Below are positions 7,026-14,720 of a stretch of DNA of 64,000 nt, one piece after another. The stretch lies in the NCBI RefSeq assembly GCF_055900595.2, contig NZ_CM148325.1, one strand, 5' to 3'. The notes beneath the pieces were generated by a model. The model was not told where the DNA came from and ran no database searches. It saw nothing but the letters and a program-made list of their open reading frames with translations. Made by a program: the position numbers and the translations under genes. How positions within the stretch are numbered: position 1 is the stretch's first letter; each line of letters opens with the position of its first letter.

Positions 7026-7874
7026 ATGGAAAAGAAATTTTTTATGGATTGGGATAATGAAATCCCGCAAGAAGAGTTTATTAACAATATTTTAGCCGAT
7101 GAAGACCTGCCTAAAATCCGCTCTCTGATTATTGGTCGTTGGGGGGAGTGCTGGGATGAGGAAAGTTGCCAACCAATAATCGACATGTTTGTTGAACATG
7201 CCGAACGCTTTGCTCATCTCGAATCCCTATTTATCGGCGATATGGAAAGCGAAGAGTGTGAAATTTCGTGGATAAAACAAGGGGATTATTCTCGTCTGTA
7301 TGCTGCGCTGCCGAACCTCAAAAAGCTGACAATTAAAGGTACTCAGGGCCTGGAACTGGGAGAAATCGCCCATGACAAACTGGAGCATCTGGAAATTATC
7401 TCTGGCGGTACGCCGTGTGACGTGTTCGCCTCATTGCAAAATGCCCAACTGCCTGCGTTAAAAACACTTATCGTTTATATTGGCGTTGAGAATTATGGTT
7501 TTGATGCATCGCTGGATATCGTAATGAAGCTGGCGTCGAAATCCCTCTTCCCGAGCCTGACGCATCTTGGCCTGGTGAACAGCGAAGAGCAAAACGAAAT
7601 CGTCCGCCGCGTGCTGGAAAGCGACATTCTGCCGCAACTGGAAGTGCTGGCACTCTCCTGCGGTACGCTTACCGACGAAGGTGCAGAGCATCTTCTCAAA
7701 CATGCCGATCGCCTTAGCCATCTGAAACTGCTGGATTTGTACCATCATTACCTGACAGAAGAGATGCAGAAAAAACTGCAAAAAACACTGACATGTACTC
7801 TCGAATTATCAGAAGCGCTAACGCCTGAAGTCTATGATGACGAAATTTATATGCATGCGATGTATACCGAATAA
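7026..7874 (+). CDS. Leucine-rich-repeat-like acidic cytoplasmic protein (I recall the family being labelled STM4015-like)
   Basis: 282-aa ORF with no signal peptide; repeated L-P-x-L-K-x-L / L-x-x-L-x-L segments (LPNLKKLTIKG, LEHLEIISGG, LPALKTLIVYIG, FPSLTHLGLVNS, LPQLEVLALSCG, LSHLKLLDL); AAGGA 8 nt upstream of ATG. Confidence 0.7.
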   Translation: MEKKFFMDWDNEIPQEEFINNILADEDLPKIRSLIIGRWGECWDEESCQPIIDMFVEHAERFAHLESLFIGDMESEECEISWIKQGDYSRLYAALPNLKKLTIKGTQGLELGEIAHDKLEHLEIISGGTPCDVFASLQNAQLPALKTLIVYIGVENYGFDASLDIVMKLASKSLFPSLTHLGLVNSEEQNEIVRRVLESDILPQLEVLALSCGTLTDEGAEHLLKHADRLSHLKLLDLYHHYLTEEMQKKLQKTLTCTLELSEALTPEVYDDEIYMHAMYTE

Positions 7875-7934
7875 ATGACATTTATTGGGAGAGAGTCATC
7901 TCTCCCATTATTTATCACAGAAAAGGAATTCTTC

Positions 7935-8921
7935 GTGATTACGCTAATTGGTCATCCTGAAAGCAAACGCACATTTTATTTTTGCCAGGCAGCGTCACGC
8001 TTACAGGAACATATCAACGTAGTGAGCTATGATCAAGCACTTACCCTGCTCTTAAATAAAGGCATGGTAAAAATCGATCCCCCCTTACATCAGGAAACAG
8101 ATATTCGCTTAATTAATACGGTTAGCCAAAACTATATTACTTTTTTACAAAAAATGGCTACCAGAAGGGAGATCCGTTTTATTAACTCACCAGAAGGTAT
8201 TATTCATCTTCTGGATAAACGCCACTGTAAGCAACGATTAGTCGAACACGCGATCCCGACACCGCCAATATTAGCGGATGATATCCGTAGCTACGATCAA
8301 CTGATCGCCTGTATGCGCAGCGAAAAGGTTTATCGCGTGTTTATTAAGCCGAATTTCGGATCAGGGGCCGCCGGGGTGCTGGCTTTGAGTCTACATCCCG
8401 GCGATAACCGTCAGGTGCTTTATTGCGCCATCCAGGTTGCAGGTGACAGGCTGGTGAACAGTAAACATATTATCCGCTATGAAAACAGCGGTGATATTAC
8501 GTTGATTGTGAATGCTATTTTACAACAAGACAATATTATCGAACGCTGGCTGGCAAAAGCCAGAGTGGGCAATAAAAGCTACGATTTACGCATCGTGTAC
8601 GTTAATGGTGAAATCGTCTGGCGGGTTGTCAGAACATCATCACAGCCGATCACCAATTTACATTTACAAAATGAAGCTATCCGTTTTGCCGATCTTAATT
8701 TACCCGTAGAAAAAGTAGCTGAAATTGATACGCTTTGTCTCAACGCCATGACCCTCTATCCGGACGTACACATTGCCGGGCTTGACGTATTACTCACGCA
8801 AAATTTAACACCCTATATTATCGAAATTAACGGCCAGGGCGATCTTATTTATCAGGACACCTGCGAAAAAAACAAAATTTATCAACGCCAGATTCAGGTA
8901 ATGAGAGAACATCATGTATAA
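7935..8921 (+). CDS. ATP-grasp-like protein (I recall the family being labelled STM4014-like)
   Basis: ORF 7875-8921; start placed at in-frame GTG 7935 because AAGGA lies 7 nt upstream, but the ATG at 7875 immediately after the preceding stop is an alternative. The ATP-grasp assignment is by resemblance only. Confidence 0.55.
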   Translation: MITLIGHPESKRTFYFCQAASRLQEHINVVSYDQALTLLLNKGMVKIDPPLHQETDIRLINTVSQNYITFLQKMATRREIRFINSPEGIIHLLDKRHCKQRLVEHAIPTPPILADDIRSYDQLIACMRSEKVYRVFIKPNFGSGAAGVLALSLHPGDNRQVLYCAIQVAGDRLVNSKHIIRYENSGDITLIVNAILQQDNIIERWLAKARVGNKSYDLRIVYVNGEIVWRVVRTSSQPITNLHLQNEAIRFADLNLPVEKVAEIDTLCLNAMTLYPDVHIAGLDVLLTQNLTPYIIEINGQGDLIYQDTCEKNKIYQRQIQVMREHHV

Positions 8922-9786
8922 CGTAACAGACGAAGTACCGGAAAATACCCGCACGGCAATCCATTCCTGCGATGGCGAAATCAATCTGAATGATTTAATT
9001 GCCAGGGAAGCCAATATCCTGTTTGTGGTGCTTGATTCCCTGCGTTTTGATATTGCGTTTCAGGAACAAGAGGCGGGAAATACACCAAATATTAACCGCT
9101 ATGGTCGCTGGATAAAGTGTGAAGCCGCTGGCAATTTTACCTGGCCTTCGCATCATTCGATGTTCTCTGGTTTTATGCCTAAGCCGCTGGAAGCTGCACC
9201 TGGTCATTCAATGCTCTTTTTCCCGAAAGATATTGGTTTAGGTCGTTTAGGGCCAAAAAATGCGTTCGCGTTCAGCGAAGAGACGTGGATTAAAGGGCTG
9301 GAAAACAAAGGTTACCGCACTATCTGCGTGGGTGGCGTCTCCTTTTTTAATAACCGCTCAGGGATGGGAAAAGTGTTCCCGGCGATGTTTAAAGAGAGTT
9401 ACTGGTATCCTAATTTCTCCTGCACGGTGAAAGAGAGCATGGATAATCAGCTCACCTTAATTAACAAAAAGGTGAACGCTGAACAGCCGCTGATGATGTA
9501 TATCAATATCGACACCATTCATTATCCGAATCATTTTTATATTGAAAATGCCAAACCTGGCGATACGGTAGAAACTCACGCCGCTGCCCTGCATTATATT
9601 GATGCCAGAATCGAAAAACTTTTCGATATCTTTCGGCAAACCGGGCGGGAGACGTTAGTTATTCTCTGTTCCGATCATGGCACCTGCTACGGGGAAGACG
9701 GTAAATATTTCCACAGTTTTAACCATCCGATTGTGAATACCGTACCCTATTTTCACTTTGTGTTAGACGGCAAAGACCATGAATAA
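8914..9786 (+). CDS. Alkaline-phosphatase-superfamily metallo-hydrolase (phosphodiesterase/phosphomutase/sulfatase-like core)
   Basis: 290-aa ORF with N-terminal FVVLDSLRFD motif typical of AlkP-core metal-binding enzymes; start overlaps the upstream stop by 8 nt. Confidence 0.7.
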   Translation: MYNVTDEVPENTRTAIHSCDGEINLNDLIAREANILFVVLDSLRFDIAFQEQEAGNTPNINRYGRWIKCEAAGNFTWPSHHSMFSGFMPKPLEAAPGHSMLFFPKDIGLGRLGPKNAFAFSEETWIKGLENKGYRTICVGGVSFFNNRSGMGKVFPAMFKESYWYPNFSCTVKESMDNQLTLINKKVNAEQPLMMYINIDTIHYPNHFYIENAKPGDTVETHAAALHYIDARIEKLFDIFRQTGRETLVILCSDHGTCYGEDGKYFHSFNHPIVNTVPYFHFVLDGKDHE

Positions 9787-11017
9787 TGAATCGATTTATC
9801 AGCAATATATGTACAGTTACCCGCATAAGACCGCTTATCGGGAATTAAACAATATTGCTTTTGCGGATGTGAAATCGCGTATTTACGAGCATAAAACACA
9901 TCTCTATATTCATATGCCTTTTTGCCAGAGCCGCTGCGGGTTTTGTAATCTCTTTACCTGCACGGGGGCAGACAATGCCTTTATCGACAACTACATAGAA
10001 GCAATTATTATCCAGGCCCGGCAAATGCAACTTGCGCCTGTAGACTGGGCCAGTTTTACCATTGGCGGCGGTACGCCACTACTGCTTAATACCGGGCAAC
10101 TGTCACGGTTGTTTCGCGGGGTGTTTGACGAATTACAGGTCGATGCGCAGATTTTTAAGGCAATTGAAACATCGCCTTCCGATACCACCGCCGAAAAGGT
10201 CGCGTTATTGCGCCAGCTTGCGGTAAACCGCGTCAGTATTGGCATTCAGAGTTTTAACGATCTGGAACTTGCCACATTACACCGCCGCCATAGTGCGGAA
10301 AATGCCCATCGGGCGCTGGAGCTACTGCGCAGGGGTAATTTCCCGATAATCAATATTGATATTATTTACGGTATTCCTGGTCAAACAGCCGCAAGTTTAA
10401 TGGCGTCGCTTAATCAAGCATTAGATTATCAGCCTGACGAACTGTTTCTGTACCCGCTATATAACATGCCGCGTCAGCCGGATATGTATAGCCTCTATAT
10501 TGAAGCCCGCGATCGCTTATTGCATGAAGGTTATACGCAAACGTCAATGCGCCGTTTTGTGCGGGTGAATAATGATTCGGCGGCTGAAAGTTGTGGCTTT
10601 GAAAATTCGCTGGCGCTTGGCGCGGGCGGGCGCAGTTATCTTGGCAATTTACATTACTGCACGCCGTGGTCGCAAAACCAGCCCGCATCGCGGCAAATTG
10701 TCACGGATTTTATCGCCCGGCCAGATAAGACCCAGATTCACCACGGCTATGTACTTTCACAAGCAGAAATGAAGCGGCGTTTTATTATCAAGAATCTCTT
10801 TTTCTATAAGGGGCTTTCGTTACGGGATTATCAGCACCAGTTCTTCTCTGAGGTATTAAGCGATTTTCCCCTGCTGGGCGATTTCATCAAACAAGATTAC
10901 TGCCACCAGCAGGATAATCGTATTCTGCTCACCGCGCAGGGTTTAGCGCTTTCGGACCAGCTTGGCCCGCTGTTTATCTCCCCGGAAGTTCGCAGGCTGG
11001 AGACGCATAAACGATGA
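9779..11017 (+). CDS. HemN/HemW-like radical SAM protein
   Basis: 412-aa ORF with YIHMPFCQSRCGFC (C49-x3-C53-x2-C56) radical SAM motif in HemN-like context; start overlaps the upstream stop. Confidence 0.8.
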   Translation: MNNESIYQQYMYSYPHKTAYRELNNIAFADVKSRIYEHKTHLYIHMPFCQSRCGFCNLFTCTGADNAFIDNYIEAIIIQARQMQLAPVDWASFTIGGGTPLLLNTGQLSRLFRGVFDELQVDAQIFKAIETSPSDTTAEKVALLRQLAVNRVSIGIQSFNDLELATLHRRHSAENAHRALELLRRGNFPIINIDIIYGIPGQTAASLMASLNQALDYQPDELFLYPLYNMPRQPDMYSLYIEARDRLLHEGYTQTSMRRFVRVNNDSAAESCGFENSLALGAGGRSYLGNLHYCTPWSQNQPASRQIVTDFIARPDKTQIHHGYVLSQAEMKRRFIIKNLFFYKGLSLRDYQHQFFSEVLSDFPLLGDFIKQDYCHQQDNRILLTAQGLALSDQLGPLFISPEVRRLETHKR

Positions 11018-11871
11018 CGCTCAAGCAGATCCAGACGCTGATTTATCGCGGCGAGATAAAGTCGTGTAATTATCGCTGTGGTTATTGCCCTTTTCATAAA
11101 CAAGACCGCAATGATAAACAGCAGGATGAAGTGGCATTATGGCGCATGGTTGAACATTTACCGGCGCAGGGTTCACCATTAAATGTATTTATTACGCCCT
11201 ACGGCGAAGCATTGCGTTATCGTTATTATATGGCGGCGATGGCGGAAATCAGCCGCTATTCCCATGTGCAGGCGGTGGGTATTCAGACCAACGCCTCTTT
11301 TAATTTATCCACCTTAGTCGCGACTTTTCAGCACTCTCAGGGCGATTTAGCAAAGCTGCGGCTGTGGTGTTCGTTTCATCCTTCCCAGGCAAGTAAAGAA
11401 GTTTTCCTTAAACAGTTACTGGCAATTAAGGACACGGGGATTACCTGTTCTGTGGGGGCCGTCGCCAGCGTAGCCGACTATGACGAATTACAGTGGTTAC
11501 GCGCGCATCTTCCTCCCGATATCTATTTCTGGCTAAACGCCAATGAGCGCGATAAAAGGCCCACCAGCGACGAAAGAAATAGCCAGTTTCAGTTGCTGGA
11601 CCCGCTTTATTATCTGGAAACCAGCCTCTGGCCTGCCAATGTCGAGTTTTGTCTGGGCGGCAAAAAGAGCGTGTTTATGAATGCTGATGGCGATCTCTTC
11701 GCCTGTAATATCAGCAAAATTAAGATTGGCAATTTATATCAACAGCAACTTTCATCTCCGTCTTGTATGTCCAGGCACTGTCACTGTTATCTGGCTTATC
11801 ACCTGCGTGAGGATATTCCGGCCCTCTCACAATTTGATGCTGAACGCTGCTTTCGGATCTTCTCGTTATGA
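11014..11871 (+). CDS. Small radical SAM protein with C-terminal Cys/His cluster
   Basis: 285-aa ORF; CNYRCGYC (C18-x3-C22-x2-C25) near N-terminus; C231, C251, C256, C258 near C-terminus; ATGA overlap with upstream stop. Confidence 0.75.
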   Translation: MTLKQIQTLIYRGEIKSCNYRCGYCPFHKQDRNDKQQDEVALWRMVEHLPAQGSPLNVFITPYGEALRYRYYMAAMAEISRYSHVQAVGIQTNASFNLSTLVATFQHSQGDLAKLRLWCSFHPSQASKEVFLKQLLAIKDTGITCSVGAVASVADYDELQWLRAHLPPDIYFWLNANERDKRPTSDERNSQFQLLDPLYYLETSLWPANVEFCLGGKKSVFMNADGDLFACNISKIKIGNLYQQQLSSPSCMSRHCHCYLAYHLREDIPALSQFDAERCFRIFSL

Positions 11872-12563
11872 TCTGGCGGTTAATCGCGCTCGATTTAGAC
11901 GGCACATTGCTGAACAGCAAGAAGATGATTTCCCCTGCGTCTGTTTCGGCACTGCAAAGCGCACAACAGGCAGGTGTGAAAATTATCCTCGCCACCGGAC
12001 GTTCGCACAGCGAAGCCCTGCCTTATTACCAACAATTGCAGTTAACCGAGCCGATGATTTGCTGTAACGGCAGCTATCTTTATCATCCGCGCCAGCGGCA
12101 AATATTGCGTCCGCTGGCGCTTGATATCCACAAGGTGGAAAGGCTACGACTCTGGTTTTCACAACAAATATTGCAGCCAAATATTTATACGTACGATGAT
12201 TTTGTTTTGCAGATTAGCCTGATACACCGCAAGGCTTCGTTATTGCGCCAGACAGAGGAATTTGCCCGACAAGAATTATCGCTGGCCTGTAGCTGGTCCT
12301 GGCATCATCAACTGGATATTACACAGGTGGGGTGTGAGAAAGGCAAAAGTCTGGCCTGGTATGCCCGACAGCAAAATATCGTGCTGGATGAAATCATCGC
12401 CTTTGGCGATAACGATAATGATGCGGGGATGCTGCGGATGGTAGGCAAAGGGATTGCGATGGGCAATGGCAGTTCGCTGGCAAAAGTCAGTGCTGACCGC
12501 GTTATTGGTCACAACAACACAGATGCTATTGCGGATTTTCTTGATGCGCAGGGTTTCAGATGA
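11868..12563 (+). CDS. HAD-superfamily Cof-type phosphatase
   Basis: 231-aa ORF with N-terminal ALDLDGTLL motif (HAD motif I) and GDNDND near the C-terminus; ATGA overlap with upstream stop. Confidence 0.8.
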   Translation: MIWRLIALDLDGTLLNSKKMISPASVSALQSAQQAGVKIILATGRSHSEALPYYQQLQLTEPMICCNGSYLYHPRQRQILRPLALDIHKVERLRLWFSQQILQPNIYTYDDFVLQISLIHRKASLLRQTEEFARQELSLACSWSWHHQLDITQVGCEKGKSLAWYARQQNIVLDEIIAFGDNDNDAGMLRMVGKGIAMGNGSSLAKVSADRVIGHNNTDAIADFLDAQGFR

Positions 12564-12600: not shown

Positions 12601-12604
12601 AAAA

Positions 12605-12637
12605 GCAAAAAACCTGCCATCGCTGGCAGGTTTTTTA
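12605..12637. terminator. Bidirectional rho-independent terminator (typA and the upstream operon)
   Basis: A-tract, cctgccatcgctggcagg hairpin, then TTTTTT, between convergent genes. Confidence 0.8.
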
Positions 12638-12653
12638 TGACTAAAAAACGAAA

Positions 12654-14477
12654 TTAATCGTCTTTCGGTGCGCGGTTGGCGCGACGACGATCGTTTTCCG
12701 TCAGGTGACGTTTACGAATACGGATAGAGGTCGGAGTCACTTCTACCAGTTCGTCATCATCGATGAACTCCAGCGCTTGTTCCAGCGTCATGCGGATAGG
12801 CGGAACCAGAACAACGGCTTCGTCAGTACCGGAAGCACGCATGTTGGTCAGTTTCTTACCGGTCAGACAGTTTACAGTCAGGTCGTTAGAACGGCTGTGA
12901 ATACCGATAATCTGACCTTCGTAAACTTCTGCACCGTGACCGAGGAACAGCTTACCGCGATCCTGCAGACCGAACAGCGCGAACGCGACCGCTTTACCCT
13001 GACCGTTAGAGATCAGTACGCCGTTCTGACGCTGACCCACTTCACCCGGACGCACGTCGTCGTAGTGGCTGAAGGTGGAGTACAACAGACCCGTACCAGA
13101 GGTCATGGTCATGAACTCAGAACGGAAGCCAATCAGACCACGGCTTGGGATCACGTAGTCGAGACGTACGCGGCCTTTACCGTCTGGATTCATGTTTTTC
13201 AGGTCGCCTTTACGTTCGCCCAGCGCCTGCATCACAGAACCCTGATGCTGTTCTTCAACGTCCAGCGTCACGTTTTCATACGGCTCTTGTTTACGACCGT
13301 CGATTTCACGGAAGATAACTTTCGGACGGGATACCGCCAGTTCGAAACCTTCACGACGCATGTTTTCGATCAGAACAGACAGGTGCAGTTCGCCACGACC
13401 AGAAACGCGGAACGCATCGGCGTCTTCAGTTTCTTCTACGCGCAGCGCAACGTTGTGTACCAGTTCTTTGTTCAGACGATCCAGAATCTGACGAGACGTT
13501 ACGAACTTACCTTCTTTACCGCAGAACGGCGAGGTGTTAACGCAGAAGAACATAGAAACGGTCGGCTCATCAACGGAGAGTGCCGGCAGCGCTTCAACGT
13601 TTTGCGTGTCGCAAACGGTGTCAGAAATGTTCAGTTCGCCCAGGCCCGTGATCGCCACGATATCGCCAGCTTCCGCCAGATCGGTTTCGATACGTTCCAG
13701 ACCGAGGTGGCCCAGCACTTTACCGACTTTCGCGTTGCGGGTTTTGCCTTCGCTATCGATGATAGTAACTTGCTGGTTCGGCTTCACTTTACCGCGCTTG
13801 ATGCGGCCAATGCCGATAACGCCAACATAGCTGTTGTAATCGAGCTGAGAAATCTGCATCTGGAACGGACCGTCAAGGTCAACGTCCGGCGCAGGAACGT
13901 GGTCAACAATTGCCTGATACAGCGGGGTCATGTCTTCCGCCATATCTTCGTGGTCCAGACCGGCGATACCGTTCAGCGCAGAAGCGTAAACGATCGGGAA
14001 GTCCAGCTGCTCGTCGGTCGCGTCGAGGTTAACGAACAGGTCGAATACCTGATCCACAACCCAGTCAGGACGCGCGCCAGGGCGGTCAACTTTGTTGATA
14101 ACAACAATTGGCTTCAGGCCGTAAGCAAACGCTTTTTTGGTTACGAAGCGCGTTTGCGGCATCGGGCCGTCAAATGCGTCAACCACCAGCAGCACTGAGT
14201 CTACCATGGACATTACACGTTCAACTTCACCACCGAAGTCGGCGTGCCCCGGGGTATCAACGATGTTGATACGGTAATCATTCCATTTGATAGCGGTGTT
14301 TTTCGCGAGGATGGTAATCCCACGCTCTTTCTCCAAATCGTTGGAGTCCATCACGCGCTCTTGGGTTTCGGCACGAGAGTCGAACGTACCGGATTGTTGG
14401 AGCAGCTTGTCTACCAGGGTGGTTTTACCATGGTCTACGTGCGCGATGATGGCGATATTACGCAATTTTTCGATCAC
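12654..14477 (-). CDS. typA: Ribosome-associated translational GTPase BipA/TypA
   Basis: 607-aa ORF with G-domain motifs ([18 protein letters not shown]). Confidence 0.95.
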
Positions 14478-14626
14478 AACTTTGCCTCAGGCATTAGAAA
14501 TAGCGCGTTATTGTACACGGATTAATCGCACTACAAAACAGGATCACAAACATCCTCCGCAAACAAGTATTGCAGAGTCCCTTTGTGATCGCTTTCACGG
14601 AGCATAAAAAGGGTTATCCAAAGGTC

Positions 14627-14720
14627 ATTGCACCAATATGGTGCTTAATGTTTCCATTGAAGCACTATATTGGTGCAATATTCACATCGTGGTGCAGCCC
14701 TTTTGCACGATGGTGCGCAT
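14627..14720 (+). promoter_or_regulatory. NtrC (NRI) enhancer binding sites upstream of glnA
   Basis: Repeated TGCACC-N5-GGTGCA-like dyads (tgcaccaatatggtgc, gcactatattggtgca, ggtgcagcccttttgcac). Confidence 0.7.

What the first reader, a model, noticed from the sequence alone, without database searches (positions are those of the whole stretch)
11014..11871. Compact radical SAM protein with an N-terminal CX3CX2C and a C-terminal four-Cys cluster
The 285-aa protein has C18-x3-C22-x2-C25 very close to the N-terminus and a second group C231, C251, C256, C258 (CMSRHCHC, codons at about 11704-11787). This looks like an auxiliary Fe-S or metal site in an unusually short radical SAM scaffold, which may indicate a peptide- or protein-modifying enzyme or a second redox cluster.
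Basis: seen in the sequence. Interest (0 to 1): 0.6.

Follow-up and report, generated by a model that had tools for sequence, protein, structure and literature searches.

The report
STM4011-family twitch-type radical SAM enzyme
This gene encodes a member of an already catalogued but functionally unstudied radical SAM family, whose C-terminal cysteines match the known "twitch" auxiliary iron-sulfur site and which belongs to a five-gene cassette found in hundreds of bacterial species.

Summary
Those cysteines are conserved well beyond chance. The protein is not a new kind of enzyme. It scores 299.5 bits (cut-off 200) on NCBIfam NF038073, "STM4011 family radical SAM protein". RefSeq already gives that name to a copy differing by one residue.

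The invariant C-terminal set is C213, C231, C256 and C258; C251 is 93% conserved. The spacing C213-x12-G226-x4-C231 ... C251-x4-C256-x-C258 aligns cysteine for cysteine with the twitch domain of SkfB. The predicted fold (pLDDT 95.5) is closest to the radical SAM enzymes BlsE, SkfB, MoaA and BtrN. One auxiliary Fe-S cluster is therefore likely. At 285 aa the scaffold is not unusually short, and there is no peptide-recognition domain.

The gene is the last radical SAM gene of a colinear operon, STM4015-4014-4013-4012-4011. This operon is present in most of 80 sampled loci from Firmicutes, Bacteroides, Planctomycetes and Proteobacteria. In 50 of the 80 loci the protein is fused to a Cof-type HAD phosphatase, and once to STM4012. 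The substrate is unknown.

An unexpected lead concerns the partner protein STM4015, a leucine-rich-repeat protein. It always ends in glutamate and sits next to a RimK/LysX-like ligase, which suggests carrier-protein chemistry.

The parts
11014..11871 (+). STM4011-family radical SAM gene (285 aa), the finding
   Evidence: ORF. NCBIfam NF038073 at 299.5 bits against a cut-off of 200. RefSeq gives this name to a copy differing by one residue.
11065..11088 (+). Codons of C18-x3-C22-x2-C25, the site for the SAM-cleaving [4Fe-4S] cluster
   Evidence: Invariant in 120/120 representatives, with Y24 also invariant. Pfam Radical_SAM matches residues 17-95.
11626..11799 (+). Twitch-like C-terminal module (about residues 205-262): C213, beta-hairpin, G226, C231, C251, C256, C258
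   Evidence: Conservation. Modelled hairpin strands 219-222 and 227-229. Partial Pfam SPASM match at 213-247. Cysteine-for-cysteine alignment with the SkfB twitch domain.
9779..11017 (+). STM4012-family HemN-like radical SAM gene; its stop overlaps the STM4011 start
   Evidence: NF006067 at 491.8 bits against a cut-off of 380. Adjacent to STM4011 in nearly all loci. Fused to STM4011 in P0023.
8914..9786 (+). STM4013/SEN3800 hydrolase of the alkaline-phosphatase/sulfatase superfamily
   Evidence: NF038075 at 351 bits. Sulfatase-family PDB matches. Invariant F75-T76-[YW]-P-S-H80 at the formylglycine-motif position.
7875..8921 (+). STM4014 ATP-grasp ligase, RimK/LysX/MptN/CofF-like
   Evidence: NF038074 at 336.6 bits. 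Sub-threshold hits to MptN (2.8e-10), RimK (1.5e-9), LysX (1.2e-7) and CofF (2.2e-7). Weak ATP-grasp PDB hits.
7026..7874 (+). STM4015 leucine-rich-repeat protein; the invariant C-terminal Glu codon is at 7869-7871
   Evidence: NF038076 at 323 bits. PDB 2RA8 is a family member (3.5e-112), with ribonuclease-inhibitor-type LRR matches. All 71 homologues end in Glu.
11868..12563 (+). Cof-type HAD-IIB phosphatase gene; its start overlaps the STM4011 stop
   Evidence: TIGR00099 at 179 bits against a cut-off of 137. The same domain is fused to the C-terminus of STM4011 in 50/80 loci and 74/119 representatives.

Best explanation
The gene encodes a twitch-type radical SAM enzyme of the catalogued but uncharacterised STM4011 family.

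Shown here: C18/C22/C25 sit on a predicted (beta/alpha)6 core with a P62-x-G64-E65 motif. A C-terminal module carries the conserved cysteines. Its first two, C213 and C231, flank a beta-hairpin, and the others form C251-x4-C256-x-C258.

Inferred: the core binds the SAM-cleaving [4Fe-4S] cluster and makes the 5'-deoxyadenosyl radical, which abstracts a hydrogen atom from the substrate. The C-terminal module holds one auxiliary Fe-S cluster. Its ligands are most likely C213, C231, C256 and C258, with C251 as a spare ligand or a catalytic thiol. That cluster either takes the second electron of an oxidative step, as proposed for BtrN and SuiB, or anchors the substrate through an open iron site, as in MoaA.

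Shown here: the enzyme works within a self-contained operon, STM4015-4014-4013-4012-4011 plus a HAD phosphatase.

Inferred: it acts together with the HemN-like STM4012, on a cassette-specific intermediate that most likely carries a phosphate ester, such as a nucleotide or sugar-phosphate-like small molecule. The phosphate would be removed by the fused or adjacent HAD domain. The substrate and product are unknown.
For: Family membership: NF038073 at 299.5 bits against a cut-off of 200, and the RefSeq name.

Conserved cysteines and other motifs across 120 representatives.

The AF2 model has pLDDT 95.5, six beta/alpha units and a C-terminal hairpin.

A profile search of PDB sequences finds SkfB, BtrN and MoaA first, and aligns all five C-terminal cysteines and the glycine with those of SkfB. 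The SkfB ligands are known from the crystal structure.

Members lacking C251 keep the other four cysteines.

The five genes are colinear in most of the 80 loci, across four phyla. No other neighbour is conserved.

The HAD domain is fused in 50/80 loci with an intact DxDGT motif. One STM4012-STM4011 fusion exists. Most top structural neighbours act on nucleotides or sugar derivatives.
Against: There is no biochemical data for any family member.

Cysteine-to-cysteine distances could not be measured, because model coordinates are not exposed.

The canonical twitch helix between the hairpin and the later cysteines is missing or very short in this protein's model.

The Pfam Radical_SAM (8e-4) and SPASM (4e-3, partial) matches are weak.

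Structural similarity is distant (TM about 0.5, 11-16% identity).

The HAD domain is absent within 10 kb in 27/80 loci, and some fused copies have degenerate catalytic motifs. The phosphate-ester inference is therefore not universal.
Confidence: 0.72

Rival explanations
1. Rival at the substrate level: carrier-protein or protein-tail chemistry. The ATP-grasp enzyme STM4014 activates the invariant C-terminal glutamate of the LRR protein STM4015. It then attaches an amine-bearing building block or further residues, as LysX does with LysW or RimK does with ribosomal protein S6. STM4011 and STM4012 then carry out radical chemistry on the tethered group or on the tail itself.
For: All 71 STM4015 homologues end in Glu, preceded by an acidic stretch of the E-Y-D-G-E type. 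The best sub-threshold matches of STM4014 are MptN, RimK, LysX and CofF. From established knowledge, all four add an amino acid to a terminal glutamate-like carboxylate. The two genes are adjacent in nearly all loci. Amino-group carrier proteins use the gamma-carboxylate of a C-terminal Glu together with acidic residues (PMC9303977). The last two residues of the STM4015 model are flexible.
Against: STM4015 is a 280-aa LRR solenoid, not a small zinc-finger carrier. No release peptidase lies in the cassette. STM4011 has no recognition domain. STM4011-HAD, alone or with STM4012, occurs without STM4014 or STM4015 within 10 kb in a few loci: L021, L024, L035, L037 and L080. The two phospho-hydrolases have no obvious role in this scheme.
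Confidence: 0.28
2. The C-terminal cysteines form a structural zinc site or a redox disulfide or thiol set rather than an Fe-S cluster. The enzyme would then be a single-cluster radical SAM protein.
For: The sequence cannot distinguish Zn from Fe-S. The twitch helix is abbreviated. The Pfam SPASM match is weak and partial. BlsE, the top structural hit, is a relative that, from memory, needs only one cluster.
Against: The alignment with the SkfB cluster ligands is cysteine for cysteine, and the CX9-15GX4C signature glycine is conserved. The cysteines are invariant over very distant phyla.
Confidence: 0.1
3. It is a full SPASM enzyme with two auxiliary clusters.
For: The Pfam SPASM model is the only C-terminal domain hit.
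Against: Only five conserved C-terminal cysteines exist and there is no CX2CX5CX3C block. The Pfam match covers only model positions 1-40 of 67.
Confidence: 0.03
4. It is an anSME-like maturase that oxidises the nucleophile residue of the neighbouring sulfatase-superfamily protein STM4013.
Against: At the formylglycine motif position STM4013 has an invariant T76-[YW]-P-S-H instead of C/S-x-P-x-R. That is the threonine-nucleophile arrangement of phosphoryl-transfer members of the superfamily (established knowledge), and it needs no oxidation.
Confidence: 0.03

Closest known systems
SkfB (B. subtilis sactisynthase, PDB 6EFN), a twitch-domain radical SAM enzyme
   Same: It is the best sequence-profile hit in the PDB and the second-best fold match. 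It has the same C-terminal pattern: a Cys before the hairpin, a conserved Gly, a Cys after the hairpin, then CX4CXC. It carries one auxiliary cluster site.
   Different: SkfB has an N-terminal peptide-recognition domain and a precursor peptide gene. It has helices between the hairpin and the CXC, and 33 rather than 24 residues between the post-hairpin Cys and the CXC. Identity is 11-12%. STM4011 has none of the RiPP context.
BtrN (2-deoxy-scyllo-inosamine dehydrogenase, PDB 4M7T) and MoaA (GTP 3',8-cyclase)
   Same: Both are compact radical SAM enzymes with a twitch domain and a small-molecule substrate. Both are among the top sequence and fold hits. BtrN shows that about 250-270 residues suffice for two clusters.
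   Different: Neither has a CXC motif. The cores differ in detail. Neither shares the gene context. Identity is 14-16%.
BlsE (cytosylglucuronate decarboxylase, PDB 7VOB)
   Different: Identity is 16% and TM is 0.56. It has a different gene cluster. The conserved STM4011 cysteine set was not compared residue by residue.
NikJ/PolH plus the phosphatase PolJ in peptidyl-nucleoside biosynthesis (recalled from memory, not tested here)
   Same: The logic is the same: a radical SAM enzyme acts on a nucleotide and a dedicated phosphatase then removes the phosphate, with an ATP-grasp ligase later in the pathway.
   Different: No homology was tested. That pathway has no LRR protein and no HemN-like partner.
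LysW/LysX amino-group carrier system, and RimK with ribosomal protein S6
   Same: For the cassette partners only: a protein with an acidic tail ending in Glu sits next to a RimK/LysX-family ATP-grasp ligase.
   Different: The carrier is an LRR solenoid of about 280 aa rather than a protein of about 54 aa. There is no kinase, reductase, aminotransferase or release peptidase. Two radical SAM enzymes and two phospho-hydrolases take their place.

Membership tests
Radical SAM superfamily | CX3CX2C motif providing three ligands to the SAM-binding [4Fe-4S] cluster | tested here: met
   C18, C22 and C25 are present and invariant in 120/120 representatives.
Radical SAM superfamily | [quoted passage not shown] | tested here: met
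Radical SAM superfamily | Reductive cleavage of SAM to the 5'-deoxyadenosyl radical | not testable with these tools
   Needs anaerobic enzymology.
NCBIfam NF038073, STM4011 family radical SAM protein | Whole-protein score above the curated cut-off | tested here: met
   299.5 bits against a cut-off of 200, covering profile positions 2-277 of 278.
NCBIfam NF038073, STM4011 family radical SAM protein | Gene neighbourhood with the STM4012, STM4013, STM4014 and STM4015 families | tested here: met
   All four pass their curated cut-offs in the window. The order is conserved in most of the 80 loci.
Twitch-domain radical SAM subclass | C-terminal beta-hairpin flanked by cysteines, with the CX9-15GX4C signature | tested here: met
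   C213-x12-G226-x4-C231. Modelled strands lie at 219-222 and 227-229. The motif definition comes from PMC6231123.
Twitch-domain radical SAM subclass | Helix alpha2' after the hairpin, followed by the remaining cysteine ligands | tested here: inconclusive
   The later cysteines are present and align with SkfB C380, C385 and C387. The model shows no helix between residues 231 and 258. Other family members have a longer segment there.
Twitch-domain radical SAM subclass | A single auxiliary cluster, with the second half of the SPASM seven-cysteine motif absent | tested here: met
   There are five conserved C-terminal cysteines and no CX2CX5CX3C. This holds at the sequence level only.
Twitch-domain radical SAM subclass | The auxiliary Fe-S cluster is actually bound | not testable with these tools
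   Needs Fe/S quantitation with EPR or Mossbauer spectroscopy. Cysteine distances in the model could not be read.
SPASM-domain radical SAM subclass | Seven-cysteine motif CX9-15GX4C-gap-CX2CX5CX3C-gap-C binding two auxiliary clusters | tested here: not met
   Only the first part is present. The Pfam SPASM match covers model positions 1-40 of 67 at E 0.004.
RiPP-maturing radical SAM enzymes (sactisynthase type) | RiPP recognition element and an adjacent precursor peptide gene | tested here: not met
   The cluster motif starts at residue 18, so there is no N-terminal domain. No conserved extra gene lies in the flanks of the 80 loci.
anSME-type sulfatase maturase | Partner sulfatase with a C/S-x-P-x-R formylglycine motif | tested here: not met
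   STM4013 has an invariant T76-[YW]-P-S-H.
Amino-group carrier protein system (LysW/LysX type), considered for the cassette | Carrier ending in Glu after acidic residues, next to a RimK/LysX-family ATP-grasp ligase | tested here: met
   71/71 homologues end in Glu. STM4014 hits RimK at 1.5e-9 and LysX at 1.2e-7, both below their family cut-offs.
Amino-group carrier protein system (LysW/LysX type), considered for the cassette | Small globular carrier and a hydrolase that releases the product | tested here: not met
   The carrier candidate is a 282-aa LRR protein. No peptidase is present in or near the cassette.

The most novel reading that the evidence does not exclude
The five-gene cassette may be a new kind of carrier-protein pathway. 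In this reading a ribonuclease-inhibitor-type LRR protein (STM4015) presents its invariant C-terminal glutamate. A RimK/LysX-like ATP-grasp ligase (STM4014) loads a building block onto it. Two physically coupled radical SAM enzymes, the HemN-like STM4012 and the twitch-type STM4011, then tailor the tethered group. Two phospho-hydrolases complete the pathway. The product would be an unknown metabolite or protein modification, made by many gut Firmicutes, Bacteroides, Salmonella and a minority of E. coli.
Probability: 0.25. Interest if true: 0.75.

Novelty: already known. Interest (0 to 1): 0.35.

Why it matters
The cysteine pattern itself is ordinary. It is the expected signature of a twitch-type radical SAM enzyme in a family that NCBI already curates.

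What is worth noting is that the whole STM4011-4015 cassette has no assigned function. It is nevertheless strictly colinear across at least four phyla, with relatives in at least 591 species genomes, including Salmonella and common gut commensals. The recurrent fusions (STM4011-HAD, STM4012-STM4011) and the invariant C-terminal glutamate of STM4015 give concrete, cheap experiments for finding its product.

Tried and rejected
- A single-sequence search of PDB sequences found nothing. A profile was needed.
- PADLOC defence models gave no meaningful hit. There was only a weak radical SAM match for STM4012, so a known anti-phage system was rejected.
- Rfam found no riboswitch or leader near the cassette, in the window or in seven diverse loci. 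There is therefore no ligand clue.
- Literature searches for STM4011-4015 and SEN3798-3802 returned only gene lists: expression tables, a sigma-54 ChIP table and a selection scan. A keyword search for the domain combination found nothing.
- The look-up of encoding contigs on two representatives gave only contigs of 1.7-2.6 kb.
- Clustering the flanking ORFs found no sixth conserved partner. The best families occur in 10 of 80 loci and are generic regulators or an efflux pump.
- The idea that the window's HAD gene carries a large internal deletion was dropped. It is only about 13 residues shorter than the Superficieibacter orthologue, with a divergent cap.
- The promoter and terminator scan gave only chance-level promoter matches. 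The one strong terminator (12637-12606, minus strand) belongs to typA.
Full report
**1. Observation**

The ORF at 11014..11871 (+) is real. It starts with ATG and encodes 285 aa. Its start overlaps the stop of the upstream gene (ATGA), and its own stop overlaps the start of the downstream gene. This is typical of translationally coupled operon genes.

The protein has eleven cysteines, at 18, 22, 25, 119, 145, 213, 231, 251, 256, 258 and 279.

**2. Is it more than chance?**

A full HMMER scan of 1.84 billion cluster representatives found 408 relatives at E <= 1e-3, of which 133 were at E <= 1e-30. Among 120 full-length sequences:
- C18, C22, C25, C256 and C258 are 100% conserved.
- C213 and C231 are 99% conserved.
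- C251 and G226 are 93% conserved.
- C119, C145 and C279 are not conserved.

Eight representatives lack C251 but keep C213, C231, C256 and C258. The conserved C-terminal set is therefore five cysteines with a four-cysteine invariant core.

**3. What it is**

The protein scores 299.5 bits on NCBIfam NF038073, "STM4011 family radical SAM protein", against a curated cut-off of 200. The window is Escherichia coli. The 5.5-kb region matches 157 of 5,426 complete E. coli genomes. In a 99.9%-identical genome RefSeq already uses this name for a protein that differs by one residue.

Pfam sees only a weak Radical_SAM match (residues 17-95, E 8e-4) and a partial SPASM match (residues 213-247, model positions 1-40 of 67, E 4e-3).

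**4. Structure**

An AlphaFold2 model built from a 98-sequence alignment has mean pLDDT 95.5. It shows six strand-helix units, the radical SAM partial barrel. After these come a beta-hairpin (219-222 and 227-229) bracketed by C213 and C231, a third strand (237-240), the C251/C256/C258 loop and two helices.

A family profile searched against PDB sequences finds SkfB, BtrN and MoaA first. All three are twitch-domain enzymes. The profile aligns C213/G226/C231/C251/C256/C258 with SkfB C333/G346/C351/C380/C385/C387, after correcting the chain's two-residue numbering offset.

In the SkfB crystal structure C351, C385 and C387 ligate the auxiliary cluster. C333 is the expected fourth ligand but lies 12 A away. 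C380, the CX4CXC cysteine, is not a ligand (PMC6231123). The pattern C213-x12-G-x4-C231 fits the CX9-15GX4C signature quoted there.

The inference is one auxiliary cluster, most probably on C213, C231, C256 and C258. C251 would be a spare ligand or a catalytic thiol.

Three caveats apply:
- The canonical helix between the hairpin and the later cysteines is missing in this protein's model.
- Other family members carry a longer insert at that point.
- I could not read coordinates, so the cysteine distances remain unmeasured.

The scaffold is not unusually short. BtrN, which holds two clusters, was crystallised as chains of 269-270 residues.

**5. Context**

The window carries a tight operon. Each product passes its NCBIfam cut-off:

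| Window coordinates | Gene | Product |
|---|---|---|
| 7026-7874 | STM4015 | leucine-rich-repeat protein |
| 7875-8921 | STM4014 | ATP-grasp ligase |
| 8914-9786 | STM4013 | alkaline-phosphatase/sulfatase-fold hydrolase |
| 9779-11017 | STM4012 | HemN-like radical SAM protein |
| 11014-11871 | STM4011 | the finding |
| 11868-12563 | Cof-type HAD | phosphatase |

In the best 80 loci the five genes are colinear in the great majority. These loci come from Lachnospiraceae and other Clostridia, Bacteroides/Phocaeicola, Planctomycetes and Proteobacteria. No further neighbour is conserved.

Fusions point to physical partners:
- 74 of 119 full-length representatives and 50 of 80 loci carry a Cof-type HAD domain on the C-terminus of STM4011.
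- One representative, P0023, is an STM4012-STM4011 fusion.
- The HAD domain is absent within 10 kb in 27 loci, so it is a frequent but not obligatory partner.

**6. What the partners say**

STM4013 aligns with sulfatases. At the formylglycine motif it has an invariant F75-T76-[YW]-P-S-H80. By established knowledge of the alkaline-phosphatase superfamily, this is the threonine-nucleophile arrangement of phosphoryl-transfer enzymes. This removes the idea that STM4011 is an anSME-like maturase for it.

STM4014 is closest, below family cut-offs, to MptN, RimK, LysX and CofF. From established knowledge, all four extend a terminal glutamate-type carboxylate.

STM4015 is a ribonuclease-inhibitor-type LRR protein. 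One uncharacterised family member has a solved structure, PDB 2RA8. Every one of 71 homologues ends in glutamate (...MLTE...SE...GE), after an acidic stretch.

This resembles amino-group carrier proteins, which use a C-terminal Glu activated by an ATP-grasp enzyme (PMC9303977). However, the carrier here is large, and no release peptidase is present.

**7. Mechanism: shown versus inferred**

Shown:
- family membership;
- the conserved motifs;
- the predicted fold;
- the twitch-type cysteine pattern;
- the operon and the fusions.

Inferred:
- SAM cleavage at the C18/C22/C25 cluster, followed by hydrogen abstraction from the substrate.
- An auxiliary cluster that accepts an electron in an oxidative step, or anchors the substrate.
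- Joint action with STM4012.
- A phosphate-bearing substrate or product, handed to the HAD domain.

Most of the nearest folds (BlsE, BtrN, MoaA, viperins, DesII) act on nucleotides or sugar derivatives. This fits the two phospho-hydrolases in the cassette. I rate a small phosphorylated substrate as somewhat more likely than a substrate tethered to STM4015. The two are not mutually exclusive.

**8. Known or new**

No paper in the searchable library assigns a function to this family. The hits are gene lists only. No defence-system model or riboswitch applies.

The finding as stated is therefore a correctly spotted but already catalogued twitch-type radical SAM enzyme. The open question, and the interesting part, is the chemistry of the whole cassette.

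Noticed in passing
window 7026-7874 (C-terminal Glu codon 7869-7871); loci L004-L083: All 71 STM4015-family LRR proteins examined end in an invariant glutamate (..MLTE, ..SE or ..GE) after an acidic stretch. They sit next to a RimK/LysX-like ATP-grasp gene. PDB 2RA8 is an uncharacterised member of the family.
   Followed up: partly
window about 7141-7146: A run of six G lies inside the STM4015 gene. A 99.9%-identical E. coli genome (NZ_CM128605.1) has five G there, and RefSeq flags its gene as frameshifted. This is either a slippage-prone tract or a sequencing error.
   Followed up: partly
window 8914-9786 (residues 75-80): The sulfatase-fold protein STM4013 has an invariant F-T-[YW]-P-S-H where sulfatases carry the C/S-x-P-x-R formylglycine motif. 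This points to a threonine nucleophile and phosphoryl transfer rather than sulfatase chemistry.
   Followed up: partly
window 7026-12563: The cassette is present in only 157 of 5,426 complete E. coli genomes. It falls into two identity classes relative to this window: 8 genomes at >=99% and 148 at 90-95%. It lies between ompL and typA, next to the sulfoquinovose genes yihO, yihP and yihQ.
   Followed up: no
window 14559-14666 (-) and 12601-12669 (-): Rfam finds ES222 sRNA (133 bits, gathering score 62) between typA and glnA. It also finds STnc370 at 53.2 bits, just under its gathering score of 54, at the 3' end of typA. The latter coincides with the typA terminator hairpin.
   Followed up: no
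loci L021, L024, L035, L037, L080: A few genomes carry STM4011-HAD alone, or only STM4012 plus STM4011, with no STM4013, STM4014 or STM4015 within 10 kb. The two radical SAM genes with or without HAD may therefore be a separable core module.
   Followed up: partly
representatives P0078 and P0088 (fused HAD domains): Some fused HAD domains have degenerate catalytic motifs, for example DLCGT instead of DxDGT, or the motif lost altogether. In those lineages the domain may be non-catalytic.
   Followed up: no
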